From positions 1-58,521 of the IMG/VR virus record IMGVR_UViG_3300046167_000389: a DNA stretch of 58,521 nucleotides; one strand, 5' to 3'. Below are positions 1,214 through 57,261 of this stretch, one piece after another (position 1 is the stretch's first letter; every line of letters begins with the position of its first letter). The notes under the pieces were generated by a model, which had not been told where the DNA came from, did not search any database, and saw only the letters and a list, made by a program, of their open reading frames with translations. Position numbers and translations under genes: made by a program. The stretch is from a virus. Taxonomy: Duplodnaviria; Caudoviricetes.

Positions 1214-1936
1214 TCACGACAGGTAACCGGCGCTGCGCTGACCACCGGAAACGCCAGAGCGTAGGCCTACACGATCACCTGCGCTGCGCCCTGCCTTCGA
1301 TGCACCTGCGCTTCGGTTGCTGGTGTGACGCCGTCCACCTGAGCGCAGCCGTGGGAACTCTTTGCGGAATGCATCATCCAGCGCACGGTCAGCCACTATT
1401 ACCAGCGCCGTGCCGTTCGAGGCTTTGGGCTGCTCGACATTCGAGCGGCTTTCACGATGCATTTGTTCCAGCCGGTTACACAGGCGTGATGCCATAGCAT
1501 TCATAAAGCTGGACCGGATCGAGCGGGCGTGATGATAGAAGGCCTCTTCCTCATAATCTGCGGTGTGCTTATAGCTCAGGAACTCAAGTTCCATCGAAGA
1601 CTGCATCAGGCTGATCAGATACATTGCATTGTCTACTTTGTGTTGCTGGCCGAAGATCGTAAGTTTTGATCCGGTTGCTACCAATTTCACTTCACAGAAT
1701 GCTTGCAGACCGTACAGCGCACCCCAAACCGGATGCCTTACCTTTTTACCCAGCGACATGCTGTCTTTTGTGTATTCGGTCAGGCTGATGTCTAGCTCAG
1801 TCAGGGTGCAATTGTATTGGTCCTGAAGTGATTGCATGGCCTGAGCAGCGGCCACTGCCTCTGCCTCTGTACAGCCGTTTTCGACAGTGCGTTGGCTGAA
1901 TGCTTTAAGCTTTTTTAAGATTGATTGTTTGTCCAT
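1214..1936 (-). CDS. DUF2786-family phage protein
   Basis: N-terminal ILKKLKAF...GCTEAEAVAAAQAMQSLQDQYN resembles DUF2786; C-terminal GRSAGDRVGL. Confidence 0.75.
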   Translation of the reverse strand: MDKQSILKKLKAFSQRTVENGCTEAEAVAAAQAMQSLQDQYNCTLTELDISLTEYTKDSMSLGKKVRHPVWGALYGLQAFCEVKLVATGSKLTIFGQQHKVDNAMYLISLMQSSMELEFLSYKHTADYEEEAFYHHARSIRSSFMNAMASRLCNRLEQMHRESRSNVEQPKASNGTALVIVADRALDDAFRKEFPRLRSGGRRHTSNRSAGASKAGRSAGDRVGLRSGVSGGQRSAGYLS

Positions 1937-1962
1937 TGGATTGGTCCTTTTTGGTTGGTTGG

Positions 1963-2132: not shown

Positions 2133-2408
2133 TCACACCTCCACATAAACGATGGTGTCAGGCTTCAGGAATATTTCCTTGCAAACATCGTCAGCCGAAC
2201 TGCATGAGAAATTGGCAAAGGCTGGCATCCCATATTTTGATTTTGGGTTGTAGTGATTTCTTACAAATTCGCCTTTGGCGTTTGGCTTGCGTCTGAAATA
2301 TTCACCCTCTTTCACAGAGCGCAGCGCGACTGCCTGCATCCCGTTTTCCATCGTCATAATATCTGCCGCCATTTCATTGAGCAGGTTCAGGTTTGGTTCA
2401 TTGGTCAT
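2133..2408 (-). CDS. Hypothetical early protein
   Basis: ORF carrying the conserved leader motif and RBS. Confidence 0.75.
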   Translation of the reverse strand: MTNEPNLNLLNEMAADIMTMENGMQAVALRSVKEGEYFRRKPNAKGEFVRNHYNPKSKYGMPAFANFSCSSADDVCKEIFLKPDTIVYVEV

Positions 2409-2432
2409 TGGTCTCTCACTTTCGTTGGTTGG

Positions 2433-2647: not shown

Positions 2648-2654
2648 CTACCCC

Positions 2655-2897
2655 TTAAAATGGAATTTCATTGCGGTTCATGTCACGCTCACAAAAGCTG
2701 AAACAAACTGTGACGGGCTGCTTTAAACTTGAAATCAAAGCTTGCATTGCAACCGCATCGAAATATGCATCTTCAAGGTTGGCTGGATATTCACCGGCAT
2801 ATTCGCCGTGGTTGTATTCGTCTGCCTCATAATAGTGGGCCTGACTGGTGCTATCTTGAAATCTTAAAGAATTGATTTGGTTTGGTTCATTGGTCAT
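2655..2897 (-). CDS. Acidic hypothetical early protein
   Basis: ORF with leader motif; shares its MTNEPN start with the 2408 ORF. Confidence 0.7.
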   Translation of the reverse strand: MTNEPNQINSLRFQDSTSQAHYYEADEYNHGEYAGEYPANLEDAYFDAVAMQALISSLKQPVTVCFSFCERDMNRNEIPF

Positions 2898-3131
2898 TGG
2901 TCTCTCCAGTTCGTTGGTTGGTGTTCAGGCACAGATGCCCGTCACCCCTGTTAACATGTCTGAATTAATTATGTCCACAATAAACTGCCAATATACCGCG
3001 ATAAGTTAACAGGCCTGTAGAGCGCATATAAGCGCCACTGAGTGCGTTAACAGTTTCTGCCACTTAGAGTTCATGAAATCTGCTAGACCCCACTCAGCGG
3101 CGATTTTCGCTTTTTTCGGGGTAATTTTGCC

Positions 3132-3161: not shown

Positions 3162-3182
3162 AGTTCAGGGAGAATTTACTAG

Positions 3183-3358: not shown

Positions 3359-4259
3359 CACGCTGCCTCCAGAAAACGGTTGTCCGAAATCCATTTATTA
3401 ACTTCTAATTCACGCTGCATCATATTAGCTGCGCGGTTTTGATTGCGGCATCAGTCTGACGCAGAGCGAAGCCGTTTCGATCATCGGCATAGGTGGCATA
3501 ATTGGTCCAAGCAGATACCAGAGCGAATTTGTTTTTACCTCTGACTGAGGCCTCTGACTGATACAGCGAGAACATTTTGTCTGCTTTGTTTTCTACCTGC
3601 CGCTTGCTGTCGGGGTTGGGCTTTGGAGCCATCATAGAGTTGAGCAGCGCCTTTACTGTGTCATCGGTCAGGCTGGTTTGGGCAAATACTTTCAGCCGTG
3701 CGCTGTCAGCGTAAAAATCGTTCTTCGCTGTCCGAAGCTGTTTGATAAAACCTTCCATAGAAAACTGGCTGCTATTCCTACGGCGCACCTTCGAGTGTTC
3801 TCCCGATACCATCCCATTGAGGCAAAACGCATCTATCGCGCCGAATAGCGTTGTGTTCGAGCCAGAGCCACCATCGATCGAGTGCAAGGCAATGATGCGC
3901 TGCTTGATGGTTGTTTGGTGTTCGTCGGTTTCAATCTGTGTTGCGATAGATGGGAATTGAACATCCATCATTCCAAAAGCACCATTTCTGCCAGACTGAA
4001 ATCTAAGCTGCGCGCCTTCAGTATCGGCTGGGTCCATGTTCTCGGTCACCTGTTGCCAGACGCCCTCAAAAAATGATCGGTGGCTGGCGCATGAAAACGT
4101 GTCTCCCACATGCCCCAGTACTTTTCCGGTGTTACCGTCGATCACAAATTTGTGCCGGTCCTGTCGGCTGGCCTCAAACACCGGATCGAAGTCTAAAGTG
4201 GTTGGCAGTTCGAGGTCTTGGCTGAAGTTTTGAAAATCTAACATATTTCTCTCTTTCAT
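3358..4259 (-). CDS. DUF932-like phage protein (3' frameshift)
   Basis: Motifs IIALHSIDGGS and AIDAFCLNGM; true C-terminus probably NRAANMMQRE...LEAA in the shifted frame. Confidence 0.75.
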
Positions 4260-4284
4260 TGATTGGTTGGTCTGTTCGTTGGTT

Positions 4285-4343
4285 GCTGACTGATCGTCAG
4301 ACCGAAGGCATCACCCTCCGATAACGGCCCAAAGGCCGTTTCA
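4285..4343 (-). ncRNA. Second type II hammerhead-like ribozyme (HH2, variant stem II)
   Basis: GAAA-CGGCC(UUUG)GGCCG-UU^-AUCGGAGG(GUGAUG)CCUUCGGU-CUGACGA; begins right after the upstream stop codon; the 10.1/11.1 positions are U/U. Confidence 0.7.
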
Positions 4344-4559
4344 CTATGCAACCATAAACAGGCGCTCTTGCGCCTCTGCAATTTGCCACTGCTTCATAGA
4401 CCGGCCCTCGAAAATCGGCACGATGCGGTCATTACGCTCGACAACGATATAATTGCATTGATCCAGCCGATAGCCGCGCAGCGCGTGGTCAAGGCGCTTT
4501 TCGTTTGAGTAGGATTTGGCTGATTTCAATTTGATGGCGCTGCGATTACGTTTCTGCAT
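4344..4559 (-). CDS. Hypothetical early protein
   Basis: Start moved to the ATG after AAGGACCAATCAA. Confidence 0.7.
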   Translation of the reverse strand: MQKRNRSAIKLKSAKSYSNEKRLDHALRGYRLDQCNYIVVERNDRIVPIFEGRSMKQWQIAEAQERLFMVA

Positions 4560-4671
4560 TTGATTGGTCCTTTTCATTTTCATTTTGTGTCTGCTCGTTA
4601 AGCCAGACGTTTATGCTTTCAATTTCACCGAAGAATAAATCGTCGGGCATTTCCCTCAAGTCGTTTGACAT
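4546..4671 (-). CDS. 41-aa acidic peptide (MSNDLREMPDDLFFGEIESINVWLNEQ...)
   Basis: Read by hand; AAGG upstream. Confidence 0.5.
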   Translation of the reverse strand: MSNDLREMPDDLFFGEIESINVWLNEQTQNENEKDQSNAET

Positions 4672-4762: not shown

Positions 4763-4972
4763 TTAGCGCACCGCCTTAATTAGGTGGTTTTCCATAGTTA
4801 TGATGCCAAACCATTCTCTGCCTTTTCCGGTGATATGTGGGCGGTTGGCTACAGTCAGTTCGCCATCGCCACGATACTGAGGGCCAAATAGGCTGGTCTC
4901 TATATACGCGAGCGGCTTGCCTACGTTTTCTTTGCAAGCTTTCTTGGTGGGATAATTTGCTATCATTGTCAT
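4763..4972 (-). CDS. Hypothetical early protein, first gene of the leftward operon
   Basis: ORF with leader motif downstream of a promoter. Confidence 0.75.
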   Translation of the reverse strand: MTMIANYPTKKACKENVGKPLAYIETSLFGPQYRGDGELTVANRPHITGKGREWFGIITMENHLIKAVR

Positions 4973-5027
4973 TTTATTGGTCCTTTTCGTTGGTTGGTTG
5001 ATAGGCGCAAATCAAGCGCCTGTCAGA

Positions 5028-5285: not shown

Positions 5286-5317
5286 ACTTACTCAACCAAC
5301 TAACAAGGACCAATCAA

Positions 5318-5494
5318 ATGAAAGCTACAGCAATACATCACTTAATGAATGACTACTTGGATAACCATACTCTGGTTAAGGCTTGGCGTGTGCTGGACTA
5401 CGTGCGGAAGTATCCTACTGCACTCAGTGGCCTTAACCGCACTGAGCTGGCTATCTACAAGGCCATCGTCAACAACTGCGGCGAGGAGATGTAG
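5318..5494 (+). CDS. Small hypothetical early protein
   Basis: ATG after AAGGACCAATCAA. Confidence 0.7.
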   Translation: MKATAIHHLMNDYLDNHTLVKAWRVLDYVRKYPTALSGLNRTELAIYKAIVNNCGEEM

Positions 5495-5495
5495 A

Positions 5496-8556: not shown

Positions 8557-8743
8557 AAAGCAGTACGCAATAACGTACTTGCATTATGTACTCGCACTTC
8601 GCGGCACAATTAAAGAAGCTGTGGAGTATGCTAAACAAGCTGAAAAGGATAGGGAGATATTGAGTGACATGAGCCAGAGAGATTTCTTAGGTCATGTCTC
8701 TGATTATATATCTATCTCAGATGTCACTGGTCAGGATGTGTAA
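8540..8743 (+). CDS. Hypothetical protein
   Basis: ORF with GAGG RBS. Confidence 0.55.
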   Translation: MKKTSKKQYAITYLHYVLALRGTIKEAVEYAKQAEKDREILSDMSQRDFLGHVSDYISISDVTGQDV

Positions 8744-8890
8744 TGATTAAGCTCTGCTACTACTGCTCACGTACCCACCAGCTACTGGCTCACAAGACTA
8801 TCCATAAGTCGGTGGCTGAACAGGAAATGAGTTATATCAACGGCTCTGACTTCTACATTCGTTTGGAATCAGTGAACGGATACTGATCAC

Positions 8891-8936
8891 AGTGGCAAAA
8901 GTGGCAGACTGCCACTCTGGAATCTGCCATGCCACT
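8891..8936. repeat. GTGGCA/TGCCAC direct and inverted repeats, probable integrase arm sites
   Basis: AGTGGCA twice, then TGCCAC, TGCCAT, TGCCAC, next to the attP core. Confidence 0.55.
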
Positions 8937-8978
8937 TTACCCATGTCGGAGGCATTTTATTGTTTAATATCAGTAATT

Positions 8979-9021
8979 TGGCTCCGGCGGTAGGGATCGA
9001 ACCTACGACCAATTGATTAAC
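8979..9021 (-). mobile_element. attP core: 3' half of tRNA-Asn(GTT)
   Basis: GTTAATCAATTGGTCGTAGGTTCGATCCCTACCGCCGGAGCCA covers anticodon, T-arm, acceptor strand and CCA; no 5' half; close to the integrase. Confidence 0.88.
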
Positions 9022-9107
9022 CGGACCCATTGATTTCATTGGATAATTCGGGATATCTGCAAAATGCCTGTTAACACTAATTGTTTTTATATGCACCTAA
9101 TTAAGTG

Positions 9108-9135
9108 TTGACAGATGAGAATAACTATATAAGCT
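9108..9135 (+). promoter_or_regulatory. Promoter for the primase operon
   Basis: TTGACA-N16-TAAGCT followed by a 5' hairpin and the leader motif. Confidence 0.55.
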
Positions 9136-9199
9136 GACGCTGTCTCTTTGGAGAGGCAGAACCCCAAACCAACTACCAACCAACTACTATGAGTGACCA

Positions 9200-9968
9200 A
9201 TGACCTACCTCGAACAACTAGAAGTCATCAAGGCTATCCCTATACGGGAAGGAGACACTAAAGTAATCCAGTGTCCTTTCTGTGGTGGCTTGAAGAAGCT
9301 TTCTGTTTCTAAAGTAGACGGCCAGCTAAAGTGGTATTGCTTTAGAGCAAGCTGTAATGGCAAAGGCATATACCAAGGCAAGAGAAGTCTACAGGCAGCT
9401 AAGAATTATCTAGCAGATGCTGTACAGCAAAAGACTAGAGAGCCAAAGCCTATTCCTTCGATTACTACTCCAGCCCGTAATCATCAGCCAGCACTCGACT
9501 ATCTAAAGCAGAACAATAGCCTAGAGGCTTATGAAGCTGGATACATAGATGTACGATACGCACCGGCAGAGGACAGAGTGCTATTCTGCATAGACACAGG
9601 CGCTGTAGGTAGATCACTAAAGAAGTATGGACCTAAGTGGCTTTCTTACGGTGTGCTGGAAGAGGGCATACACGTAGGTGTTGGATCGTCAGCCGTTCTC
9701 GTTGAGGATACACCATCAGCCTGTTCTGTTAGCAGAATTAACGGCCTTGTAGGAGTAGCTTTACTAGGTACTCGCGTAAGTAATTGCTTAAAAAAGTCGC
9801 TAAATAAATACGATGCTTGTTATTTGGTCCTTGACAAAGACGCTTCGTCTAAGGCTATAACAATAGGCTAGGAGTATAGATAAAAGCTTACTGATTAGGT
9901 TTACTTCTGAGGATTTAAAAAACCTGTCAGTTAACCAGCTTGTAGAGGTGTTAAGTAATGAACTGTGA
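9200..9968 (+). CDS. DNA primase (Zn finger + TOPRIM), frameshift near 9868
   Basis: CPFC...YCFRASC, VLVED, VALLGT, LDKDA; C-terminus continues in a shifted frame to the stop at 9968. Confidence 0.85.
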
Positions 9969-10264
9969 AAAATTTGAATGTATGAGGTCACCTCATATGT
10001 GTCTTGTAACACATCACTGGACAGGTTCGTATCTTAGAAAGCCCTACGGCGCTCACTACAGAATATCTCTCCGCATGCTTAGTAAGAAAGTTCTCAGAAC
10101 TACTTCTGATTGGACGGGTATAGATGTTTGGTGCAGCCCAATAGTTGCCTTAGCTCCACCATATCCCTCAACATAATTACCAGAATAAACTATGAAGGGG
10201 CCATTGTGGTCATTATATTCGTCTACGAAACCAGTACAGACGTTAAAGCAAAGGGAATGGTAAA

Positions 10265-10583: not shown

Positions 10584-11798
10584 ATGGACCAATCATTGCT
10601 TAAAAGCTGCCTCAGTAATTCGTTCTATAGCGAAAACAAGGCAAAGCTTAGACCATCCCTTTTTGATGATACACTCAAAGAAGTATACACAACCATCGTA
10701 TCAATGCACGATGCATTTGAAAAAGACCTCACCCCACTAGAGCTATTTAGTTACTGGAAGGCCAACAATCCTACTAGCACAGGAGCTTGGACAGCCGACA
10801 TCCAAGACCTAATCAATTCAGTATCCAATGCCGAAGCGATCGATGATGTAGTGGCTGTTGATGTCATCGAAAACCTGTGGCGTCAGCATATAGGCTTAGA
10901 CATAGCCACCCTTGGCATAAAGATGTCTGAGGGTGATGCGGCTGCAATGGACTTACTAAAGTCTCTTCTAGACCGTGTCTCTGAGGGCTACATGCCTGAT
11001 GACTTTGCTGATGAAGTAACTGATGACATCGATGAACTACTGGCTGTTGTCAGTAATGATAACCGTTTCAAGTTCAACATCGACACACTCTCTAGAGAGG
11101 TCTACGGAATTGGTAGAGGAGAGTTTGGTGTAATAGCTGCCTACTCTAATGTCGGTAAGACTGCGTTTGCTATTAGTCTGTGTGCTGCACCGGCAGGTTT
11201 CTGCGCTCAAGGTGCTAGAGTAGGTTACATAGCCAACGAAGAGATTGGTAAGCGTACCAAGTTACGTGCGGTACAAGCGTATACCGGCATGACCAAAGAT
11301 GAGATTGCTTTTGACAGCCGTGGAGCCGCTGCACGGTATGCTGGTATTAAAGAGAGGCTGACCTTTGTCGATGCTCAAGGCTGGGATATCCAGATGCTTG
11401 AAGCGTATCTCAATAAGAAGAAGTTCGATGTGGTCATCGTCGATATGGCCGACAAGATTGCCCTAACTCAGCAATTTAACTCTGGGCATGAACGCCTGAG
11501 AGAACTCTACTACCGTCTACGTGAGGCCGCTAAGAAGTTTGACTGCGCTATACTAGGGCTATCACAAGCATCCGCTGAAGCTGAAGGCAAGACCCGTATC
11601 ACTATGTCCATGATGGAAGGCAGTAAGCTGGGTAAGGCGGCTGAGAGTGATGTCATGCTAGGCATAGGCCGAATGAATGATCCTGATAATCCTGATGACC
11701 CTAGTCGATGGATCACAGTGATGAAGAATAAGATCAGTGGCTGGCACGGTACAGTTCTCTGTAACCTGAACTCACAGACCTCTCGCTATGAAGTGTGA
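10584..11798 (+). CDS. DnaB-like (SF4) replicative helicase
   Basis: Walker A AYSNVGKT, Walker B VVIVD, LSQA, KNKISG. Confidence 0.9.
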   Translation: MDQSLLKSCLSNSFYSENKAKLRPSLFDDTLKEVYTTIVSMHDAFEKDLTPLELFSYWKANNPTSTGAWTADIQDLINSVSNAEAIDDVVAVDVIENLWRQHIGLDIATLGIKMSEGDAAAMDLLKSLLDRVSEGYMPDDFADEVTDDIDELLAVVSNDNRFKFNIDTLSREVYGIGRGEFGVIAAYSNVGKTAFAISLCAAPAGFCAQGARVGYIANEEIGKRTKLRAVQAYTGMTKDEIAFDSRGAAARYAGIKERLTFVDAQGWDIQMLEAYLNKKKFDVVIVDMADKIALTQQFNSGHERLRELYYRLREAAKKFDCAILGLSQASAEAEGKTRITMSMMEGSKLGKAAESDVMLGIGRMNDPDNPDDPSRWITVMKNKISGWHGTVLCNLNSQTSRYEV

Positions 11799-11934: not shown

Positions 11935-14090
11935 AATGGCTTGTATTGGACTTAGAGACAACGGTTAAGCGAATAGATGGCCGAATAGATAACAGCCCTA
12001 AGAACCCCGACAATCGGTGTGTGTCTGCTCACTACGGCTGGCTTGGGCTGGAGACTGTAGATGAGGTTCACACAGACCTGTGGCATCACAAAGAACTACA
12101 CTCGCCTGATGGTATAGACCGCCTGAAGCAGCACCTCGCTGAAGCAGACGGCATGATATGCCACAACGTGAAGTTCGATGCTGAGTGGCTGCTAGAGATG
12201 GGCTTTGAATTGCCGCCTATCGTCAGAGATACAATGATAACAGAATACCTGTTAGCCAAGGGCCAGCGAAGACTGCTTAGTCTGAAAGAGAGTGCATTAC
12301 GTCGAAAGACTGCGAGCTTAAAGAAGTCTGACTTAGTAGATGAGCTATTTAAAGGCGGCACATGCTTTTCTGAGATGCCGTTGGATGTAGTAGTCGAGTA
12401 CGCAGAGGCTGACGTTAAGGCCTGTGGTGAGTTGTATATAGCGCAGCAAGACATCTTAGCCCGTGAGCATAATCTCAGCCTTAAAAAGGTCATTCCCTTT
12501 ATGAATGAGATGCTGTTGTTTCTCTGTGAGATAGAGATGAACGGGGTAAAGATTGATAAGGCTGCTCTAGCAGAGGTTGAGGCGCAGTTTACCGAAGAGA
12601 AGGCTTCCCTAGAGATAGACCTGAAGCGTATTGTTGAACAGGTGATGGGTGACACTCCCATTAATCTAAATTCAGGTGATGATATGACCAGAGTGATCTA
12701 CTCGCGGGAAGTCATCGACAAGGCCATACACAAGCAGACGTTTAACATCGGAACCAACGAAGCCGGTAAGTCACTCAGACCGCCGTTTGATTTTATAAAG
12801 TACCCTAATAAATTTTATGATGCAGTACGGACCACCACCAGAGTTGTTATGAAGCAGTCTGCCTCTCAGTGTCCTGACTGTTCTGGTTCCGGTACTATAC
12901 AGAAGTACAAGGTTAAGACGAAGACGAAGCTAGGTAAGAAGTATCGTGTGCAGGGTGATCCTTATAAGAATAGGTCACGGTGTACGGTATGTAATGGCGT
13001 AGGAGCGATATACACCTCGACTGGAATAGTTGCTGGCCTGAAGATGGCTCCTAGTACAGCCTACGATGCCAGTATCGGCGGGTTTAAGTCTGACAAGGTT
13101 ACTATACAGCGTCTGATTGAACAGGCCGAGCGCAAGGATAATGCCACCGCCGTAGAGTTCCTGACTAAGCTGTCTCGCCTAAGTGCTGTGTCTGTTTATC
13201 TGGATAGCTTTGTGGCTGGTATTAAGAGAGGTACTCGCGCAAGCGGGTTTCTACATGCAAACTTCAATCAGTGCATTGCCTCTACTGGTAGACTGTCGAG
13301 TGGCGGTGGCATGTCGTTGAACTTACAGAACCAGCCTAAGAGAGGTTTCCCTGTTCGTAAGTGCTTTGTCAGTCGGTTCCCAAACGGTCTACTTTTAGAG
13401 TCGGACTACTCCGCTCTTGAATTTAGAACGGCGTGTGAGTTGTCGAGAGACAGTCAAGGCTTGGCAGACGTTTTAGAGGGTAAGGACATACACAGACAGA
13501 CTGCAAGTATATGTCTACAGAAGCCGCCTAACGAAGTCAGTAAGGATGAGCGTCAGGGTCATAAGTGGGCCAGCTTCCAGCCACTATTTGGAGGCACTGG
13601 AGCCGGTCAACCAGAGCATATCAAGGCCTACTTCAGCCGCTTCTATGAGATATACGAGGGTATATACGGCTGGCATCAGTCACTAATGAATGGCACTTTA
13701 AAAGATGGCACAGTAACCACACCTAGCGGGCGTCAGTATTTCTGGCCGAATGTCACTAGAACCAAAGCAGACAGGGTATCGAATGCTACTCAGATACTGA
13801 ATTATCCAGTACAAGGCTTCAGTGCAGACTTAGTACAATTAGCTTGTATAAGGGCGTTTAGGCTGTTTAAGGAGAGAAAACTACAATCAAAACTGATACT
13901 TACGGTACACGACAGTTTAGTGTGCGATACACATCCTGATGAGGTGGATCAGGTCAGAGAAGTTCTAACTGAAGCTATGACTAAGGTCAGCGAAGAGTCA
14001 AAAGAACGGTTTGGCTACTCCCTTATTGTGCCGCTCGACATAGAAATAAGTCGCGGTAAAAACTGGCTAGATCAGGAAGAATATGTTTGA
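11928..14090 (+). CDS. Family A DNA polymerase with DnaJ-like Zn-finger insertion
   Basis: Exonuclease DLETT and HNVKFD; polymerase STGRLSS, DYSALE, NYPVQG, TVHDS; CPDCSGSG and CTVCNGVG insert typical of HMO-2011-type phages. Confidence 0.95.
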   Translation: MVKWLVLDLETTVKRIDGRIDNSPKNPDNRCVSAHYGWLGLETVDEVHTDLWHHKELHSPDGIDRLKQHLAEADGMICHNVKFDAEWLLEMGFELPPIVRDTMITEYLLAKGQRRLLSLKESALRRKTASLKKSDLVDELFKGGTCFSEMPLDVVVEYAEADVKACGELYIAQQDILAREHNLSLKKVIPFMNEMLLFLCEIEMNGVKIDKAALAEVEAQFTEEKASLEIDLKRIVEQVMGDTPINLNSGDDMTRVIYSREVIDKAIHKQTFNIGTNEAGKSLRPPFDFIKYPNKFYDAVRTTTRVVMKQSASQCPDCSGSGTIQKYKVKTKTKLGKKYRVQGDPYKNRSRCTVCNGVGAIYTSTGIVAGLKMAPSTAYDASIGGFKSDKVTIQRLIEQAERKDNATAVEFLTKLSRLSAVSVYLDSFVAGIKRGTRASGFLHANFNQCIASTGRLSSGGGMSLNLQNQPKRGFPVRKCFVSRFPNGLLLESDYSALEFRTACELSRDSQGLADVLEGKDIHRQTASICLQKPPNEVSKDERQGHKWASFQPLFGGTGAGQPEHIKAYFSRFYEIYEGIYGWHQSLMNGTLKDGTVTTPSGRQYFWPNVTRTKADRVSNATQILNYPVQGFSADLVQLACIRAFRLFKERKLQSKLILTVHDSLVCDTHPDEVDQVREVLTEAMTKVSEESKERFGYSLIVPLDIEISRGKNWLDQEEYV

Positions 14091-16702: not shown

Positions 16703-17184
16703 TCACTCAGGAAGATATCGACGCAGTGGCTGAACTAGCAGAGCCACTACCACAAGCTGGCCTACACAACATGCCAGATGATTGGGATAGACACAGACAT
16801 CTCTCGCCTCTGGAAATGGTCTCTGACTTTGCATCCCGAATGGAGCAGCCACTAGGTGAGAAGTGGAAATTCAGCAAGAAGCTGGAAGATTTTCGCTGGG
16901 ATATGATTCAGGAAGAATACGGGGAAGCTTTTGATGAAAGCTGCAACGGCAATAACCCTGAAAACATGCTCAAGGAATTAGCTGATCTTGTCTACGTAAT
17001 TTACGGCTACGCAGCCACATATGGCTGGAACTTAGACAAGGCAGTTCGCCGTGTACACCGCTCCAATATGAGCAAGCTGGGCTTAGACGGCAAGCCCCTG
17101 AAAGGACCAGACGGCAAAGTGCAGAAGGGTCCGAATTATAAAAAACCAACACTAACGGATCTAGTGGAGACCAATGATGAGTAA
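16699..17184 (+). CDS. MazG-like NTP pyrophosphohydrolase
   Basis: IQEEYGE, KELADLVYVIYG, VHRSNMSK, DGKVQKGPNY. Confidence 0.85.
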   Translation: MITQEDIDAVAELAEPLPQAGLHNMPDDWDRHRHLSPLEMVSDFASRMEQPLGEKWKFSKKLEDFRWDMIQEEYGEAFDESCNGNNPENMLKELADLVYVIYGYAATYGWNLDKAVRRVHRSNMSKLGLDGKPLKGPDGKVQKGPNYKKPTLTDLVETNDE

Positions 17185-19104
17185 CCTTACTACCAACTGA
17201 CTACCAGACCTTTATCGCAACCAGCCGCTATGCGAGGTGGCTTGAAGAAGAAGGCCGCAGGGAGAACTGGGGCGAGACAGTATCTCGGTACATGGATAAC
17301 ATCGTAAAGCCTGTAGCCGGTGATGATACCTATATAAAGAATATAGAACAGGCCATCCTTAGCCTAGAAGTCATGCCCAGTATGCGGTCAATGATGACGG
17401 CTGGAAAGGCGGCTAACCGCGATAATACGTGCATGTACAACTGTAGTTATCTAGCCGTAGATGATCCGAAGGCCTTCGATGAGGCTATGTTCATCCTGCT
17501 CTGTGGAACTGGGGTAGGGTTCTCTGTCGAGAGACAGTATATCAATAATCTCCCTGAAGTTCCTACGCTCTTCGACAGTGATACTATTGTCATGGTCAGG
17601 GATAGTAAGGAAGGATGGGCTAAGGCTTTCAGGCAAGTTCTTGCTCTCCTGTGGGCTGGTGAAATTCCAAAATGGAATGTCGGAAAAGGTTAGACCGGCT
17701 GGTGCGCGACTAAAGACATTCGGGGGCAGGGCGTCTGGCCCAGCGCCGTTAATTGATCTGTTTAACTTTGCGGTTAAAACCTTCAAAGCTGCACAAGGCC
17801 GAAAGATGTCTTCCATAGAATGCCATGACCTGATGTGCAAAGTGGGCGAAGTAGTAGTCGTTGGCGGTGTACGCCGCTCCGCAATGATTTCTCTGAGTAA
17901 CCTGTCTGATGATCGTATGCGACATGCTAAGAGTGGTAAGTGGTGGGATGAGCCGCAAAACAATATTTACAGATTTGGTTATCGTGCTTTAGCAAACAAC
18001 TCTGTGGCATACTCGGAGAAGCCTGACAGCATAGCATTCATGCGTGAGTGGACTGCCTTAGTAGAGAGCGGGTCAGGCGAGCGAGGGATATTCAATCGTC
18101 AAGCAAGTAAGACGCAAGCTGCTAAAAATGATAGACGGGATAGTTCATATGATTTTGGAACTAATCCTTGTAGCGAGATTATCCTTAGACCATCACAATT
18201 TTGCAACCTCAGTGAAGTAGTTGTACGGGCAACCGACACTATAGAAGACTTGGAGCGTAAGGTTCGTATAGCTACGATTTTGGGAACCATACAGGCCACA
18301 TACACTAAGTTCCCATACCTTCGGAAAGTCTGGGAGAAGAATACTGCCGAAGAGCGTCTACTTGGCGTCAGTCTCACAGGTATTATGGACAACCCTCTAA
18401 TGACTACAGCCAACAATGGATTGGCTAAGACTTTAGAGCATCTCAAGCAGGTTGCGGTGGACACTAACAAGGAGTGGGCAGATAGGCTTGGCATAGAGCA
18501 GTCGGCTGCTATTACGTGCATAAAACCATCGGGAACAGTTTCTCAACTTGTTTCATGCGCCAGCGGGATTCACGCACGGCACTCTCCGTATTATATTCGT
18601 ACAGTGAGGGGCGATAATAAAGACCCTCTAACGAGATTTATGATAGACCAAGGCATTCCCAATGAGCCAGAGTCTCAGAAACCTGATCAAACGACTGTCT
18701 TTAGCTTTCCTGTGAAGTCTCCTGAAGGAGCGGTCTGCACCGCAGATGTGACGGCTATTGAGCAGCTTGAAATGTGGCTGATGTACCAGAGGCACTGGTG
18801 CGAGCATAAGCCAAGCGTGACTATCAATGTGAAGGCAGATGAGTGGTTTGAAGTAGGCGCATTTGTATATGAGAATTTTGATGAGATGTCTGGCGTATCG
18901 TTCTTGCCATTTAATGAGCATGTATATGTCCAAGCTGTTTATCAGGATTGCAAGGCTTCAGATTATCAAAGTCTTTTGGAAAAAATGCCTGATCGAATTG
19001 ACTGGTCAAAACTTCAAGACTACGAAAAAGAGGACAACACCGTGTCTATGCAGACGATGGCTTGCACTGGAGACAGTTGCGAACTTGTTGATATTTCAGC
19101 ATAA
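17177..19104 (+). CDS. nrdJ: Class II (B12-dependent) ribonucleotide reductase, two frameshifts
   Basis: MSNLLPTDYQ...SRYARW start, GTGVGFSVE, GGVRRSA, TNPCSEI, KPSGTVSQL, C-terminal ACTGDSCE. Confidence 0.9.
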
Positions 19105-19112
19105 ATCCCAAT

Positions 19113-19144
19113 AAAAAAGCCCTCAGATCGCTTGACCTGAGAGC
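19113..19144 (-). terminator. Terminator of the leftward structural transcript
   Basis: GCTCTCAGGTC-AAGC-GATCTGAGGGC followed by T6; overlaps the -35 of the sRNA promoter. Confidence 0.8.
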
Positions 19145-19160
19145 GCATTTACACTAAAAT
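19132..19160 (+). promoter_or_regulatory. Sigma70-type promoter of the candidate sRNA
   Basis: TTGACC-N17-TAAAAT. Confidence 0.7.
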
Positions 19161-19166
19161 GTATCT

Positions 19167-19238
19167 TGAATGGGGTTGAGATTGGTCCATCCTGTTCGTT
19201 GGTTGAGACCCCTGCTTTGGTTGGCGGGGGTCTCTTTT
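19167..19238 (+). ncRNA. Candidate ~70-nt trans-acting antisense sRNA
   Basis: Lies between the promoter and the terminator GAGACCCCTGC-TTTGGTTG-GCGGGGGTCTC-TTTT; contains ATTGGTCC and GTTCGTTGGTTG, complementary to early-gene leaders. Confidence 0.72.
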
Positions 19239-22200
19239 ATTCTATACCCAGATCCATCATCTGTTCGTCTATGCTGATAGTAGGAACACTTTCGTCTTCT
19301 GTATTGCCTGTTACTGAAGAAGGGTACGCAAGAGACATAGTTTCTAAGTTGTCGCCTACTTTTCTACCCGCTATTGTTACAGCACCACTCACACCTATCT
19401 GCCTCGCCATACGGCTGTATTCTTTGATCGTTTCAATCACTGTTTTCTGCATGGGGCCACGGCCCTTAATTCCAGCCACAATTAATTCAGGCACTTTAAA
19501 GAGCAGTTCCATTTGGGTTTTCTGGTTCGCTATTGGAAGCTGGTCGATATACTTTTTAAAGAATGCGGAGCCAATGGCTGCAGCTTGTAGACTGGCATCA
19601 CCTCTACCAAATAATACACCTACGTTAGCACCAATTAATCTAGCTAAATTCTTTTGAAGATCTGGTGTATCTGACATTACCTGATTAAACGTCTTAGGGT
19701 CTGTCATTCTCTTTTCTAGTTGTAGGCCTTGAAAGATCATTTCTCCTATAGCATTTTTTTCGTCAGCACTTAAAATCCCAGTGTCTACCATCACATCTAG
19801 AATAGTAGGGTCTCCTGAGCGTCTACTCATAGGCTGTAACATACGTTTAGCTACCGTGGTGAAGTCTGGTGGATCACCCGCCCCTGCAAATATCTCATCG
19901 ATTGTTGCATTTCTAAAATCAATCTTAGCTTCAGGAGAAATAGAACCCGCTTCGACAGCTTCCCTAGCCAGCCTTGAGTAACCCTCTACTGGGGTGTCTG
20001 TTGCTAATGTTTTCCCTATAGCGTCTGATAGTCTTTCGGTGTTTCTTACAAATCCTAACTCATCAATTAGCCTCGCTGCGGTTTTATTGGCCTCGTACAG
20101 CGTAAGCAGATCTCCTTTGAAGTTATCGAACTGATTAATAAGATTTTGGTTTTGATTGATAAATGTGTCTAAGGCTTTGAGGTCTAAAACGCCTGTAGTA
20201 ACATCTTCAAACTCCATAATCTTAGATCGTAAGAAGTCTTCTTGAGCTTTGCTTATAGTTAATCCCAGCAATACAGGTTCGTCGGCTAGGGCAGGTGGCA
20301 AGTAGTCAGGAGTAGCCCCAGTCCTAGAGAAGTCTACTGTAGGGCCGTCTTCAGGAGCATCTTCAGGCTTAGGATCTCTACTGTAAGTCTCCCCTTCAGG
20401 ACGGTTGAACATCTCGTCCAATCTTTCCTGCGTAGACTCAAAGTTTGGCAACTCATCTCTAGGAACAGGGTCTCCATCTCCTGCGGCTTCAGGCGGCACA
20501 GCTTCAGTTACTTCATCTTGAAATTGTCTTTCAAAGGTACTTCTTCTGCCATCGGGTGGAAAAATATCATTACCAGATCCGGGTTCTCTAAAGGAAGGAT
20601 CACCTACTGGCTCAGTAATCATCTCCCCATTCTCATCAAACTGCACCTGACCAAATTCATCTCGTACAGGGCGCTGGGCTGCAGCCGTAGCACGGTAAGG
20701 GTAGGCGGTGTTCTCAGGATAGATTACATCATCAGTAGTGGCTGCGTCAGTAGTAGGTGGTACAGGCTCCTCGACGTTCTCTGCAGCGGCCTTCTTAGCA
20801 GCTAGAGAATCTTCCATGCGGATTAATTCAACTCTATCTGCAGCGGCGTCAGTAAACTCAGCGGCCTCTCTTAGCTCTCTAAATTTTTCATCTGCCTCTG
20901 CACCACCGGAGCCAAAGCCCTCTCTTAATACGGCGGTATCTCTAATACTTGTGCCGCCCTTAGTCTCTGTAGAGAGTACATCTTTTACAAAATACCGTGT
21001 AAATCTTTTATTAAGCGCAGCACTAAATCCACGGGCTTGGTCAATAACACTACCAGCCGCCCCGTCTAAGGTACTTAGCTGATCAATAGATGCAGCGGCT
21101 AGATCATCAAATAAACCCGCCTTCTTAAATTCACTATTAGCGGCAGATGCTCTAGATTGATCCAGCATCTCAGAGCGAAACTGAAGTATTCTTCCTACAG
21201 TAACACTTCCGTTTTTTCGTATCTCTGCTTGCAGATTATCAATAACGTCATCAAGCTGACCGCCGCCAGCTATTGTTCTACCTTCAGGAAGGCCGTCTTT
21301 TAATTTCTGTATTACTGCAGAAAGTTGTTCTCCAGATACAGACTGTTCCTGATTAATTCTATCCCAGAGTGCAGTCTCCATACTTCTGATATTATCTTTA
21401 GCTTGGAAGATAGTTTTCTGCGTAAGGATGGAAGCCGCCGCAGGGTCTGTTTTACTCATGGCTTTTAAAGCTTCTGCCACTTTATCTTCTTCTAGCTTTA
21501 ATTTAGAGTCGATCACACTAGAATAGAAATTTGTTCGTAGAGCTTTAGCCATCTCTGTATTACCGGCCCTAGCCATAATATCAGAGGCCTTTAGAATGCC
21601 CGACAAGACTAGATTGGCCCGTTCCATAACGTCTTTACCAAACTCAGGGCTTTCAACCATTAACCTCTTCTGCATTGCCATTAGCAGCGGGTTACCAGTT
21701 AAGTCTCCTGCCGCAAGATTACCTCCTAAAGAGTCGGCTGTCTCTATGTCTGATATTATTCGCTCAGGAGTGTAGAACTCTGCCTGTTCTCTAAGTGCGG
21801 CTGCAGAGGTTGTATTTCCATTACTTTCAACAAAATCGGCCTCTTCTAGTAGGCCTTTTCTAGTTTGCTCTGCAGTTTTTAGGATTTGATCTACTGCTAG
21901 TTTTCTAGCTCCGGTGTCACTCCAGCTAGAAAATACTTGATCGACTGCCTTACGCCCTTGTCTGTATGCCATTCCTAAAGGTGATGCTTTTGAGATAGCT
22001 CCTACATTGGCCCCAGAAATACCACCCAGTAATTCTGCCCCCATCATAACCCAAGGGTTATCTCCTAGACCACCAGCTTCTACTGCAGCCACTCCTGCAG
22101 CCGCTCCTGTGGTGGCAGCGGCTTCTGTTGCAGCAAATTTAGCAGGATTATTTCTGATCCCTTGCATGAGAGGATTAGTAAGTCCAAATCCCGTCTTAGC

Positions 22201-56469: not shown

Positions 56470-56609
56470 TACTTCTTCTTTTTCTTCATAGCCATGCCGC
56501 CGTAGCTCATAGCTGGCTTCTTCTTCATAGCCATACCGCCCATGTTAAACTTAGGCATAGTACGCTGCTTTGCTGGGGGCATGTCGGCCCCACACTTCTT
56601 ACCCTTCAT
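56469..56609 (-). CDS. 46-aa Lys/Met-rich protein with two xxGGMAMKKK repeats
   Basis: Read by hand; GAGGAG RBS. Confidence 0.7.
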   Translation of the reverse strand: MKGKKCGADMPPAKQRTMPKFNMGGMAMKKKPAMSYGGMAMKKKKK

Positions 56610-56856
56610 CATCAAACTCCTCTTCTAATAACTCTGGTATGAATCTCTTTGGATCTAATGGAACATCTACTGAACAGTCTTCTGTGGCGAAGTATCTTCC
56701 GTAGCCGTCGAACTCTTGGGCTAAGGGATTATCCCTCAACTCCTTGTCAGAGATCAGGCCTTCTTCCAGTAGTAATCTTCTGATGTGATCGAACTTCAGG
56801 ATCTGTCCTGTTCGTTCTTGGATCGCTGCACGAATATAGTACAGATTAAATGTCAT
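56599..56856 (-). CDS. Hypothetical protein, first gene of the packaging operon
   Basis: ORF downstream of the promoter at 56875-56904. Confidence 0.65.
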   Translation of the reverse strand: MTFNLYYIRAAIQERTGQILKFDHIRRLLLEEGLISDKELRDNPLAQEFDGYGRYFATEDCSVDVPLDPKRFIPELLEEEFDDEG

Positions 56857-57045: not shown

Positions 57046-57261
57046 CTACCCGCCGTAGACCTTGTGGTAGATTTCTCCCCGACTAATTCCCATATCCTTT
57101 AACTGTTTGTCGGATAGGTTCTTCAACTGCCAGTAGTCTACCCGCCGTTGCTGCATATCCTGCATCTTCTTGACTATGGCTGCGTCACCTACAAAGGTGT
57201 GGACCATCACTGCAAACATCTTTCCAAACATATCTATCTCCTTAGCTGTATGTGGTATCAT
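57046..57261 (-). CDS. DUF1127 (YjiS-like) small protein
   Basis: QRR..YWQLKNLSDKQLKDMGISRGEI; true start probably near 57231. Confidence 0.85.
   Translation of the reverse strand: MIPHTAKEIDMFGKMFAVMVHTFVGDAAIVKKMQDMQQRRVDYWQLKNLSDKQLKDMGISRGEIYHKVYGG

What the first reader, a model, noticed from the sequence alone, without database searches (positions are those of the whole stretch)
19132..19238. Candidate phage-encoded master antisense sRNA that would cover the RBS of at least 8 early and replication genes
Seen: a TTGACC-N17-TAAAAT promoter and a U-tailed hairpin enclose ~70 nt with no credible ORF. Its core AUUGGUCCAUCCUGUUCGUUGGUUG (19181-19205) is the reverse complement of CAACCAACGAACAGGATGGACCAAT. 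That bipartite motif occurs in sense orientation at the starts of ORFs 1936, 2408, 2897, 4259, 4559, 4972 (minus strand) and 5318, 9200/primase (plus strand). Pairing is 14 contiguous nt with the 4259 leader and 22 of 25 with the 2897 leader, and the spacing of the two boxes is identical in the 2408, 2897 and 9200 leaders. The terminator loop shows a further UUUGGUUGG. Known analogies: P1/P7 C4 antisense RNA (two-box targets), P4 CI RNA, and GcvB G/U-rich pairing to C/A-rich enhancers. Inference: one trans-acting RNA silences the whole early programme, either for lysogeny/immunity or for the early-to-late switch. I do not know of this being described for HMO-2011-type phages.
Basis: partly seen in the sequence, partly recalled or inferred. 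Interest (0 to 1): 0.95.

Follow-up and report, generated by a model that had tools for sequence, protein, structure and literature searches.

The report
Conserved small RNA gene in marine roseophages
A group of temperate marine phages carries a conserved gene for a roughly 73-base RNA whose exposed bases match the ribosome-binding leaders of the phage's own early genes, so it probably switches those genes off, although nobody has yet seen the RNA itself.

Summary
Window 19132-19240 (+) carries TTGACC-17-TAAAAT, a 73-nt stretch with no conserved ORF, and a strong terminator. It lies in the convergent gap between nrdJ and the late operon.

A search pattern that contained no promoter found 51 viral contigs and 37 true metagenome contigs with this element. 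All 88 keep a TTGAC(C/G) -35, a 16-18 nt spacer (17 or 18 in every hit) and a TAnnnN -10. The 10 chance matches do not.

Twenty-six distinct copies fold the same way: a 5' stem-loop, an unpaired GUUGGUU linker, then the terminator. 95.6% of cells pair and 10 of 19 pairs show compensatory changes. G:U pairs place the structure on the plus strand. Rfam has no matching family.

The stem-loop 1 loop (AUUGGUC) and the linker complement a two-box leader, CAACCAAC...GACCAAU, next to the start codons of 8 early and replication genes (13 sites against 1.2 expected). Phages with the RNA tend to have such leaders. Five relatives without it, including HMO-2011 and CRP-207, have 0-1.

No expression data could be obtained. 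The number of targets varies by lineage: the isolate CRP-738 has one full site.

Verdict: a real, new phage sRNA family (about 0.85), probably a trans-acting repressor of early translation (about 0.5). It is limited to the CRP-738-like lineage.

The parts
19132..19137 (+). -35 hexamer TTGACC of the sRNA promoter. It lies in the loop and 3' arm of the minus-strand terminator hairpin.
   Evidence: TTGAC(C/G) is present in 51 of 51 viral and 37 of 37 true metagenome copies that were found with a pattern containing no promoter.
19155..19160 (+). -10 hexamer TAAAAT, 17 nt after the -35
   Evidence: The spacer is 17 or 18 nt in all 88 copies. The -10 varies (TAAAAT, TATACT, TATAAG, TAAATT, TATACA, TATAAT, TACATT, TATAGT, TATATT, TAAATA) while the spacer sequence diverges.
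19168..19240 (+). Predicted sRNA, about 73 nt. The 5' end is inferred from the -10 and from the conserved GAAU/GAAC start; the 3' end lies in the U-run.
   Evidence: MFE -36 kcal/mol, z -5.3. Model R1 scores 88 bits here and finds a single copy in the window. No Rfam family matches.
19168..19197 (+). Stem-loop 1: 5' arm 19168-19176 (GAAUGGGGU), loop 19177-19188 (UGAGAUUGGUCC, holding the box-2 complement AUUGGUC), 3' arm 19189-19197 (AUCCUGUUC, an anti-Shine-Dalgarno-like CAUCCU/CACCUU).
   Evidence: 9 pairs, 4-5 of them with changes on both sides, 90-94% of cells paired against 44-57% in slid controls.
19198..19204 (+). Unpaired linker GUUGGUU, the box-1 complement. GUUGGUUG (19198-19205) is invariant in every copy.
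   Evidence: It is also invariant in the copies found through nrdJ homology rather than by pattern.
19205..19238 (+). Rho-independent terminator: 12-bp stem, loop UUGGUU, U-run. It also ends the nrdJ operon.
   Evidence: 10 pairs, 99-100% of cells paired, 3-5 pairs with compensatory changes.
19110..19144 (-). Minus-strand terminator of the late operon. It lies beyond the sRNA gene, so late transcripts run antisense through the whole sRNA.
   Evidence: The stems covary between lineages: CTCAG/CTGAG, CTACAG/CTGTAG, CCCCC/GGGGG.
1934..1961 (-). Two-box leader and start of the 240-aa DUF2786/DUF7168 gene
   Evidence: Cofold ddG -15.2. The orthologues' leaders also pair in G006 (-19.1) and CRP-738 (-14.5).
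2406..2431 (-). Two-box leader and start of the 91-aa ORF
   Evidence: ddG -19.3, rank 4 of 14618 windows.
2895..2920 (-). Two-box leader and start of the 80-aa ORF; 22 of 25 match to the RNA's complement
   Evidence: ddG -24.3, rank 2 after the perfect antisense.
4257..4285 (-). Two-box leader and start of the 279-aa DUF932 gene; 14 contiguous nt
   Evidence: ddG -18.6.
4557..4572 (-). Leader of the 71-aa ORF with box 2 only (GGACCAAUCAAAUG)
   Evidence: ddG -16.1.
4970..5000 (-). Two-box leader and start of the 69-aa first gene of the leftward early operon
   Evidence: The orthologues' leaders pair at -11 or better in 5 of 6 genomes.
5293..5320 (+). Two-box leader and start of the 58-aa first rightward ORF. 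The promoter TTGACA-18-TAGACT (5256-5285) would place the 5' end of this mRNA at the CA box.
   Evidence: ddG -15.4.
9177..9202 (+). Two-box leader and start of the primase gene
   Evidence: ddG -15.1.
10584..10594 (+). Start codon of the 404-aa ORF (helicase, by synteny with CRP-738 gp10) inside the 11-nt match AUGGACCAAUC to the stem-loop 1 loop
   Evidence: ddG -16.6; for synteny.
17143..17176 (+). Two-box-like leader (AAACCAAC ... GACCAAUG) and start of nrdJ
   Evidence: ddG about -9.5 in relatives, which is weak.

Best explanation
Window 19168-19240 (+) encodes a roughly 73-nt small RNA. The host sigma-70 RNA polymerase transcribes it from its own near-consensus promoter, and the terminator that ends it also ends the nrdJ operon.

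The RNA is a 5'-terminal stem-loop, a 7-nt unpaired G/U linker, and the terminator hairpin. The linker (GUUGGUU) pairs with a C/A-rich box, CAACCAAC, about 17-25 nt upstream of the start codon. The loop of stem-loop 1 (AUUGGUC) pairs with GACCAAU immediately before or over the start codon. Extended pairing through the anti-Shine-Dalgarno-like 3' arm of stem-loop 1 would cover the Shine-Dalgarno sequence.

This would occlude the ribosome-binding sites of the first genes of both divergent early operons and of several early and replication genes: the DUF2786 gene, the DUF932 gene, primase, helicase and small ORFs. The RNA would therefore damp or shut off early translation after infection, or in a lysogen.

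Shown: the gene's anatomy, its conservation, its strand, and the complementarity. Inferred: that it is transcribed, that it pairs in vivo, and that pairing represses.
For: Promoter:
- Real by consensus.
- It is one of only 8 sites with 10 or more of 12 matches in 58.5 kb on both strands.
- It is present in 51 of 51 viral and 37 of 37 true metagenome copies found with a pattern that contains no promoter. It is absent from all 10 chance matches to that pattern (5 metagenome, 5 genome contigs).

Structure:
- MAFFT alignment of 20 distinct copies: 96.9% of cells paired against 50-55% in slid controls; 7 of 19 pairs changed on both sides; 0 of 500 shuffles reached the observed paired fraction, number of double-change cells or covariation score (3 and 8 of 500 reached the two count measures).
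- Model-based alignment of 26 distinct copies: 95.6% paired; 10 of 19 pairs changed on both sides; 0 of 500 shuffles reached any of the five measures.

Strand: 70 G:U cells. 96.9% of cells pair when read as plus-strand RNA and 78.8% when read as minus-strand RNA. MFE is -36 against -23 kcal/mol.

Model transfer: a model built without lineage E still finds lineage E at 43-45 bits.

No conserved ORF on either strand: the minus mini-ORF runs 13 codons in the window, 4 in lineage B and does not exist in lineage F; the plus TTG start is not conserved.

Targets:
- 13 two-box sites against 1.2 expected. All but two lie at starts of early or replication genes, in sense orientation, whichever strand the gene is on.
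- In a cofold scan of 14618 windows (mean -3.5, sd 2.7), 8 of the 24 best non-self sites are such start regions.
- Strict two-box start regions: genomes with the RNA have 7, 3, 4, 0, 1, 6, 1 and 1; genomes without it have 1, 0, 0, 0 and 0.
- Among the 65 annotated CDS of CRP-738, the hits are early or replication genes, apart from one box-2-only match at gp31.
- The lineage E RNA has a changed box 2 and CUAG in place of UUCG. It pairs best with lineage E leaders (-21.9, against -16.4 to -19.1 for foreign seeds).
Against: - No transcript evidence. The four RNA runs laid were contigs and none covers 19098-19325.
- The target set is not stable. CRP-738 has one full two-box leader and G007 none. 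Orthologous leaders lose the motif in some lineages, for example G001 DUF2786 at -4.8 and G006 69-aa gene at -5.6.
- Part of the complementary stretch is locked in the stem of stem-loop 1.
- ddG values for most leaders (-15 to -19) overlap the best chance sites. One example is 12569 (-) at -22.3, on the non-coding strand.
- The covariation between seed and leaders rests on one partial lineage E genome. Common descent or gene conversion of a duplicated leader could also explain it.
- The invariance of the linker in pattern-found copies follows from the search pattern.
- The U-tail is interrupted in some lineages, for example L105, L119, L114 and L118.
- Late transcripts run antisense through the gene, so a cis role cannot be excluded.
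Confidence: 0.5

Rival explanations
1. The RNA is real, but its main job is in cis. It is fully complementary to the 3' untranslated end of the convergent late operon and overlaps the 3' end of the nrdJ mRNA. It would control late-mRNA stability or processing, for example through RNase III on the duplex, or act by transcriptional interference. The likeness to early leaders would then be a trace of its origin as an inverted copy of a 'hairpin plus leader' cassette.
For: - The minus-strand terminator lies beyond the sRNA gene (19144-19119) and covaries, so late transcripts must cross the whole gene.
- The -35 sits inside that terminator hairpin, so late transcription could occlude the promoter.
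- Read on the minus strand, the locus has the same layout as true leaders: a GC hairpin directly followed by CAACCAACGAACAG, as at the 4259, 2897, 4972 and 9200 leaders.
Against: - A purely cis antisense needs no particular sequence. Yet GUUGGUUG and AUUGGUC stay fixed across lineages whose flanks, spacer and terminator stems diverge.
- Lineage E changes box 2 in step with its own leaders.
- Two-box leaders co-occur with the RNA.
Confidence: 0.15
2. The RNA is real but acts mainly on host mRNAs. Its G/U-rich linker and anti-Shine-Dalgarno-like arm would pair with C/A-rich enhancers and ribosome-binding sites of host genes, as host regulators of the GcvB type do. The phage leaders would merely share the host's enhancer style.
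For: - The single-stranded G/U-rich seed and a CACCUU element can pair with many strong ribosome-binding sites.
- In CRP-738 few phage genes carry the full site.
Against: - The host genome could not be examined.
- Two-box leaders are nearly absent in related phages without the RNA, including roseophage CRP-207, which infects a host of the same family as written in its record. The motif is therefore not simply host style.
- Box 2 matches the phage-specific GACCAAU next to start codons.
Confidence: 0.12
3. The shared motif is the binding site of a phage protein, a translational repressor of early mRNAs in the manner of T4 RegA (recalled). The locus would then provide a decoy copy on the late-operon 3' end, or the plus-strand RNA would titrate or guide that protein rather than pairing on its own.
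For: - The motif is strictly sense-oriented at start regions and repeated.
- Three exposed UUGGU elements in the RNA of many lineages recall multi-site protein sponges.
Against: - No candidate RNA-binding protein was identified.
- The third UUGGU, in the terminator loop, is lost in lineages C, D, E and H.
- The plus strand carries the complement of the leader motif, not the motif. One protein would not bind both.
Confidence: 0.08
4. There is no separate RNA. The region is only two crossed terminators of convergent operons plus a relic leader, and the promoter-like hexamers are fortuitous.
For: - A terminator after nrdJ and one after the late operon would be conserved anyway.
- No transcript has been seen.
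Against: - The -35, spacing and -10 are kept in 88 of 88 true copies while the spacer drifts, and are absent from 10 of 10 chance pattern matches.
- Stem-loop 1, which is no terminator, covaries and needs G:U pairs on the plus strand.
- Sigma-70-like promoters are otherwise depleted: 3 against 12.8 expected in 1-10000.
Confidence: 0.07

Closest known systems
P1/P7 c4 antisense RNA
   Same: It is a short phage-encoded RNA that acts in trans on the phage's own mRNA. It uses short complementary boxes, presented in loops, that lie around a ribosome-binding site and block translation. Seed differences define immunity groups. (Review PMC12197685, passages read.)
   Different: - c4 has one target operon (ant). 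As I recall, it is cut out of the leader of that same operon. That point comes from no call here.
- The RNA here has its own promoter and terminator and lies 8-17 kb from its predicted targets.
- It has about 8 predicted targets in the window.
- There is no sequence or structure match: no Rfam hit at E up to 10.
GcvB-type multi-target sRNAs (recalled from general knowledge)
   Same: A single-stranded G/U-rich seed pairs with C/A-rich elements just upstream of the Shine-Dalgarno sequence of many mRNAs.
   Different: GcvB is host-encoded, about 200 nt and regulates amino-acid transport. This RNA is phage-encoded, about 73 nt, has a second box at the start codon, and its targets are phage genes. 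No Rfam GcvB match.
Lambda OOP and P22 Sar cis-antisense RNAs (recalled)
   Same: These are phage RNAs of about 70 nt with their own sigma-70 promoter and intrinsic terminator. They sit in a convergent arrangement and are antisense to a phage mRNA.
   Different: They overlap the gene they control. Here the overlapped partner is only the 3' end of the late operon, and the ribosome-binding sites that match lie elsewhere in the genome.
3'-end sRNAs with an internal promoter that share the operon terminator (MicL/DapZ type, recalled)
   Same: The gene sits at the 3' end of the nrdJ operon and shares its terminator, so the same seed is also present in the operon's 3' untranslated region.
   Different: It is a phage gene, and the promoter lies in the intergenic gap rather than inside the upstream coding sequence.
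Lambda LPR1/PreS phage sRNA (bioRxiv 10.1101/2024.10.31.621285; abstract and outline read)
   Same: It is a recently described phage-encoded trans-acting sRNA that supports the phage cycle.
   Different: It regulates host genes (dnaN) and activates them. There is no sequence relation, and the predicted targets here are the phage's own early leaders.

Membership tests
Trans-acting base-pairing sRNA gene (generic bacterial or phage kind) | Own promoter | tested here: met
   10 of 12 consensus matches. Conserved in 88 of 88 true copies found without using the promoter; absent in 10 of 10 chance matches.
Trans-acting base-pairing sRNA gene (generic bacterial or phage kind) | Intrinsic terminator at the 3' end | tested here: met
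   12-bp stem and U-run, 99-100% of cells paired, with compensatory changes. The U-run is interrupted in a few lineages.
Trans-acting base-pairing sRNA gene (generic bacterial or phage kind) | Conserved secondary structure with covariation and no conserved ORF | tested here: met
   for structure and strand. for the lack of a conserved start or ORF on either strand.
Trans-acting base-pairing sRNA gene (generic bacterial or phage kind) | A transcript of the predicted size exists | tested here: inconclusive
   only assembled contigs of RNA runs were available, and none covers the locus.
Trans-acting base-pairing sRNA gene (generic bacterial or phage kind) | Accessible seed complementary to several mRNAs at regulatory sites | tested here: met
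   This is in silico only; regulation was not tested.
P1/P7 c4 antisense RNA family (in Rfam, as I recall) | Match to the family's sequence and structure model | tested here: not met
   no c4 hit among all Rfam 15 families at E up to 10. The best hit of any family was rnk_pseudo at 23 bits against a gathering score of 55.
P1/P7 c4 antisense RNA family (in Rfam, as I recall) | Encoded in, and processed from, the leader of its own target operon (recalled) | tested here: not met
   The RNA has its own promoter and terminator in the nrdJ/late-operon gap, 8-17 kb from the matching leaders.
P1/P7 c4 antisense RNA family (in Rfam, as I recall) | Two short boxes pairing around a ribosome-binding site | tested here: met
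   linker against CAACCAAC and stem-loop 1 loop against GACCAAU at the start codon. In silico only.
P1/P7 c4 antisense RNA family (in Rfam, as I recall) | Confers immunity or heteroimmunity | not testable with these tools
   Needs lysogens and superinfection assays.
GcvB | Match to the Rfam model | tested here: not met
   no hit.
Cis-antisense RNA (OOP/Sar kind) | Overlaps, on the opposite strand, the mRNA it controls | tested here: inconclusive
   By geometry it overlaps the late operon's 3' untranslated end, but no ribosome-binding site or coding sequence. Whether that overlap is functional is unknown.
tRNA-derived attP core or tRNA-like element | tRNA or tmRNA fold, or identity to a host tRNA gene | tested here: not met
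   no tRNA or tmRNA in the window; no true copy in one genome from each of 185,579 species.

The most novel reading that the evidence does not exclude
The RNA is the immunity determinant of a temperate marine phage that has no recognisable protein repressor. In the lysogen it would be made constitutively from its near-consensus host-type promoter. It would keep the first genes of both early operons, and those of superinfecting relatives, untranslated. Lineage-specific seed and leader pairs (lineage E against the rest) would define heteroimmunity groups, as c4 does for P1 and P7. Late transcription, which runs antisense through the gene and over its -35, would switch it off on induction. This would be an RNA-based lysis-lysogeny switch in one of the ocean's widespread phage groups.
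Probability: 0.2. Interest if true: 0.9.

Novelty: new variant of a known kind. Interest (0 to 1): 0.7.

Why it matters
Phage-encoded regulatory RNAs are known from a handful of enterobacterial phages. I found none described for roseophages or HMO-2011-type phages. The group's main comparative paper, PMC9038755, contains none of the words promoter, terminator, non-coding, small RNA or intergenic.

This is a compact RNA gene with unusually clean comparative support. It has a whole set of predicted targets in the phage's own early leaders. One RNA addressing a shared leader 'address label' on many early genes would be a simple timing or immunity device.

It can be tested directly. The cultured phage CRP-738 and its host strain carry it, in a gap left unannotated in GenBank.

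It also gives a marker for a sublineage of abundant marine phages, and a covariance model to annotate it.

Tried and rejected
1. Expression. The look-up of sequencing runs listed 10 runs, all holding small shares of the words. X1, X2, X5 and X6 were laid at 85% likeness. All are assembled contigs, and none covers 19098-19325. This says nothing either way about expression.

2. Full-length duplexfold scan of a 41-nt seed against 40-nt windows. It was too noisy: long, loop-rich chance duplexes reached -30 to -41. I replaced it with a cofold ddG scan that charges for opening both partners.

3. Rfam at E up to 10. Only sub-threshold noise appeared: rnk_pseudo 23 bits, PyrR 20.6 bits, RefA5 13.4 bits.

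4. RNAalifold on a raw MAFFT alignment of 10 copies found only the terminator. The 5' stem-loop emerged after trimming to the predicted 5' end and naming the structure.

5. tRNA or attP idea. ARAGORN found nothing. The genome-contig scan gave 5 hits in unrelated phyla, all without promoter or terminator and all under 14 bits with the model. So no prophage copy was found and the host could not be identified this way.

6. Minus-strand 13-codon ORF and plus-strand 163-aa ORF 19166..19657. Neither start nor frame is conserved, and the sequence downstream of the terminator differs between close relatives.

7. Function of the target proteins. PHROGs and Pfam gave only DUF2786/DUF7168, DUF932, primase and unknowns. 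No HTH_3 or S24 repressor domain appears in six frames. Other repressor folds were not searched.

8. Seed-leader covariation. Only lineage E differs in the boxes, and only one partial lineage E genome (G003, 18.5 kb) reaches early genes. L178 and L204 added nothing. The result is suggestive, not decisive.

9. Second promoter unit at 56938. RNAalifold on 4 copies gave no supported structure.

11. Supplementary files of papers were not opened. Supplementary tables of PMC9038755 may list the subgroup of CRP-738 and host predictions that bear on the scope of this family.
Full report
WHAT THE WINDOW IS

The window is a complete 58,521-bp virus record.
- Its nrdJ is about 70% identical in DNA to the nrdJ of Roseobacter phages CRP-207 and CRP-13, and 65% identical to that of Puniceispirillum phage HMO-2011.
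- Its gene order matches Roseobacter phage CRP-738: integrase, primase, helicase, DNA polymerase, exonuclease, MazG-like protein and nrdJ, followed by a convergent late operon. CRP-738 is listed among the HMO-2011-type isolates in PMC9038755 (passages read).
- The window encodes a tyrosine integrase (PF00589, 52 bits).
- The finding lies in the 132-bp gap between nrdJ, which ends at 19104 on the plus strand, and a 1184-aa late ORF, which ends at 19237 on the minus strand.

CHECK OF THE OBSERVATION

- The promoter scan finds TTGACC (19132), 17 nt, TAAAAT (to 19160) on the plus strand. It also finds a plus-strand terminator (stem 19205-19234, 12 pairs, then TTTTATT) and a minus-strand terminator (19144-19119, then a T-run).
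- The two terminators are crossed. The nrdJ transcript must read to 19238, and the late transcript must read back to about 19110.
- The 25-mer complement is exact at 19181-19205 and recurs with 3 mismatches in the 2897 leader. No shuffle gave any match.
- CAACCAAC occurs 10 times against 1.8 expected.
- The leaders share the form CAACCAAC - Shine-Dalgarno - GACCAAU - AUG.
- A two-box search gives 13 sites against a mean of 1.2 and a maximum of 5 in 100 Markov simulations. Eleven of the 13 sit at the starts of 1936, 2408, 2897, 4259, 4972, 5318, 9200 and nrdJ (17174). One is the locus itself and one (25901) is not at a start.
- The 4559 leader has box 2 only.

IS IT A GENE? COMPARATIVE EVIDENCE

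Eighty loci encoding nrdJ relatives were fetched.
- The whole unit recurs downstream of nrdJ in the closer relatives, in five sequence lineages.
- A covariance model finds it in 16 of the 80 loci. Two more contigs (L004, L010) break off inside it.

I then searched with a pattern taken only from the seed and the first terminator bases. It contained no promoter.
- Viral contigs: 51 matches.
- Metagenome contigs: 42 matches.
- Genome contigs, one genome from each of 185,579 species: 5 matches.
- All 51 viral and 37 of the 42 metagenome matches carry TTGAC(C/G), a 16-18 nt spacer (17 or 18 in every hit) and a TAnnnN -10 upstream.
- The other 5 metagenome matches and all 5 genome matches lie in unrelated contexts and have no promoter. 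The latter score under 14 bits with the model.
- The promoter is therefore a property of the element and not of the search.
- Within the window it is one of 8 sites with 10 or more of 12 consensus matches. Such sites are depleted in the first 10 kb: 3 against 12.8 expected.

STRUCTURE AND STRAND

From the predicted 5' end (G19168, about 7 nt after the -10) the RNA folds as follows:
- stem-loop 1, GAAUGGGGU / AUCCUGUUC, with a 12-nt loop;
- an unpaired linker, GUUGGUU;
- the terminator.
The MFE is -36 kcal/mol with z = -5.3.

On a MAFFT alignment of 20 distinct copies this structure has 96.9% of cells paired, against 50-55% when partners are slid. Seven of 19 pairs changed on both sides. No shuffle of 500 reached the observed paired fraction, number of double-change cells or covariation score, while 3 and 8 of 500 reached the two count measures.

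On a model-fitted alignment of 26 distinct copies the figures are 95.6% paired and 10 of 19 pairs changed, with 0 of 500 shuffles reaching any measure. That alignment leans towards the structure.

Stem-loop 1, which is not a terminator, has 4-5 covarying pairs.

Seventy cells are G:U. Read as minus-strand RNA, only 78.8% of cells pair, and the minus strand folds at -23 kcal/mol. The selected structure is on the plus strand.

The model was built without lineage E and still finds lineage E at 43-45 bits.

Other checks:
- No Rfam family matches.
- ARAGORN finds no tRNA.
- No ORF is conserved on either strand.

I put the existence of a real sRNA gene at about 0.85.

WHAT IT WOULD PAIR WITH

The two conserved exposed elements are the linker and AUUGGUC in the loop of stem-loop 1. 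They complement box 1 and box 2 of the leaders. The 3' arm of stem-loop 1 (CAUCCU or CACCUU) complements the Shine-Dalgarno sequence.

I ran a cofold scan that charges for opening both partners, over 14,618 windows (mean -3.5, sd 2.7, first percentile -11.7).
- The perfect antisense site ranks first (-60.8).
- Next come the leaders of 2897 (-24.3), 2408 (-19.3) and 4259 (-18.6).
- The leaders of 4559, 5318, 1936 and 9200, and the start of the 404-aa ORF at 10584, are all within the 24 best non-self sites.
- Chance sites of similar strength exist, for example 12569 (-) at -22.3.

All leader copies are in sense orientation at start regions, whichever strand the gene is on. This fits an RNA-level signal better than a DNA operator.

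DOES THE LEADER MOTIF GO WITH THE RNA?

Strict two-box start regions were counted in each genome.
- With the RNA: window 7, G001 3, G006 4, G007 0, CRP-738 1, and the partial genomes G004 6, G002 1 and G003 1.
- Without the RNA: G011 1, G012 0, G013 0, CRP-207 (first 18.7 kb) 0 and HMO-2011 (first 17.7 kb) 0.
- In CRP-207 the AACCAAC copies lie inside coding sequence.

With the independent GenBank annotation of CRP-738, only gp59 (DUF2786) of 65 CDS has both boxes. Primase, gp09, gp61 and gp63 have one box each, and the only other one-box match is late gene gp31.

Orthologue by orthologue, predicted pairing is kept for the 69-aa first leftward gene in 5 of 6 genomes. It is kept for DUF2786 in 3 of the 4 genomes where a homologue was found, but it is lost in some lineages.

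The regulon is therefore real in the window's lineage and in lineage F. It is small in lineage H, which includes CRP-738.

COVARIATION BETWEEN SEED AND LEADERS

Only lineage E differs in the boxes. Its loop is UUUGGU(U)AUCC, and it has CUAG in place of UUCG before the linker.
- Its one available partial genome has leaders reading CAACCAACUAGGAUACAAAC, ACCAACUA...GGAAUAAC and ACCAACUA...AUAACCAAUG.
- Its seed pairs better with these leaders (-21.9) than foreign seeds do (-16.4 to -19.1). It pairs worse with most foreign leader sets.

This is suggestive. It rests on one genome, and descent of the RNA gene from a leader copy would also explain it.

GEOMETRY AND MODEL

The RNA shares its terminator with the nrdJ operon, so the seed is also present in that operon's 3' end. 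Late transcripts cross the gene antisense, and the late terminator hairpin contains the -35.

I infer that the RNA is made by the host polymerase from infection onwards, or in the lysogen. It would then damp translation of the first genes of both divergent early operons and of several replication genes. Late transcription could counteract it through promoter occlusion and a complementary 3' end.

No HTH_3 or S24 domain is detectable in the phage in six frames, despite the integrase. This leaves room for an RNA-based immunity function. I give that reading 0.2.

COMPARISON WITH KNOWN SYSTEMS

It works most like the c4 RNA of P1 and P7, which uses two short loop-presented boxes around a ribosome-binding site (review passages). 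It also resembles G/U-seed regulators of C/A-rich enhancers (recalled).

It is not a member of either family. There is no model match. It has its own promoter and terminator instead of being processed from the target's leader, and it has many dispersed targets.

I found no description of it:
- the searches gave nothing relevant;
- PMC9038755 contains none of the words promoter, terminator, non-coding, small RNA or intergenic;
- the locus is unannotated in CRP-738.

LIMITS

- There is no transcript evidence.
- The host genome was not examined.
- The invariance of the linker in pattern-found copies follows from the pattern, although the nrdJ-found copies show it independently.
- Paper supplements were not opened.

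VERDICT

This is a real, new family of phage small RNA, restricted to the CRP-738-like lineage of HMO-2011-type roseophages. It is probably a trans-acting translational repressor of the phage's early leaders (0.5). The novelty class is a new variant of a known kind. Interest: 0.7.

Noticed in passing
window 56857-57045 (promoters at 56904 minus and 56938 plus): The gap between minus ORFs 56599..56856 and 57046..57261 holds the only perfect sigma-70 consensus in the window: TTGACA-17-TATAAT on the plus strand. A divergent TTGACC-18-TACAAT faces the other way. The plus promoter and the first 27 nt after it (GAAUUGUCGGUUGAGCGGUAUACUAUA) are conserved in G001, G004, G006 and CRP-738. That transcript would run antisense into small minus-strand ORFs. 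It may be a second regulatory RNA or an operator region. Four copies gave no supported fold.
   Followed up: partly
window 17174-19104: nrdJ is split over three reading frames in the window. Compared with the intact 642-aa gene of relative G004, the window has single-base insertions near 17186 and 17681. These are frameshifts or assembly errors.
   Followed up: partly
window 6527-7663 and the whole window: A tyrosine integrase is present (PF00589, 52 bits), but six-frame searches find no HTH_3 or Peptidase_S24 repressor domain anywhere in the phage. Other repressor folds were not searched.
   Followed up: partly
window leaders at 2897, 4259, 4972, 9200; also G006: Many two-box leaders are preceded within 3-8 nt by a small GC hairpin, for example GGCA..TGCC, CTGAC..GTCAG, GGCGC..GCGCC and CTGTCTCT..AGAGGCAG. 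The sRNA locus read on the minus strand has the same layout of hairpin followed by CAACCAACGAACAG. The RNA gene may have arisen as an inverted copy of such a cassette.
   Followed up: no
window 19168-19181 and 56967-56981: Both predicted transcripts, the sRNA and the 56938 unit, begin with GAAU and carry GGUUGAG within the first 15 nt. The meaning is unknown.
   Followed up: no
window 1-10000: Sigma-70-like promoter matches are depleted: 3 found against 12.8 expected from shuffles. One of the three (5256-5285, TTGACA-18-TAGACT) would start the rightward early mRNA exactly at its CAACCAAC box.
   Followed up: no
L150 (MZ892992.1) 12668-12796: In the cultured phage CRP-738 the sRNA lies in an unannotated gap between gp19 (nrdJ) and gp20.
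   Followed up: yes
L170 1-180: A 49-kb contig of a Desulfobulbaceae MAG matched the seed pattern by chance. It carries a run of AACCAACC repeats and repeated AATAAAACCAAC units, with no promoter or terminator. It is unrelated to the sRNA.
   Followed up: partly
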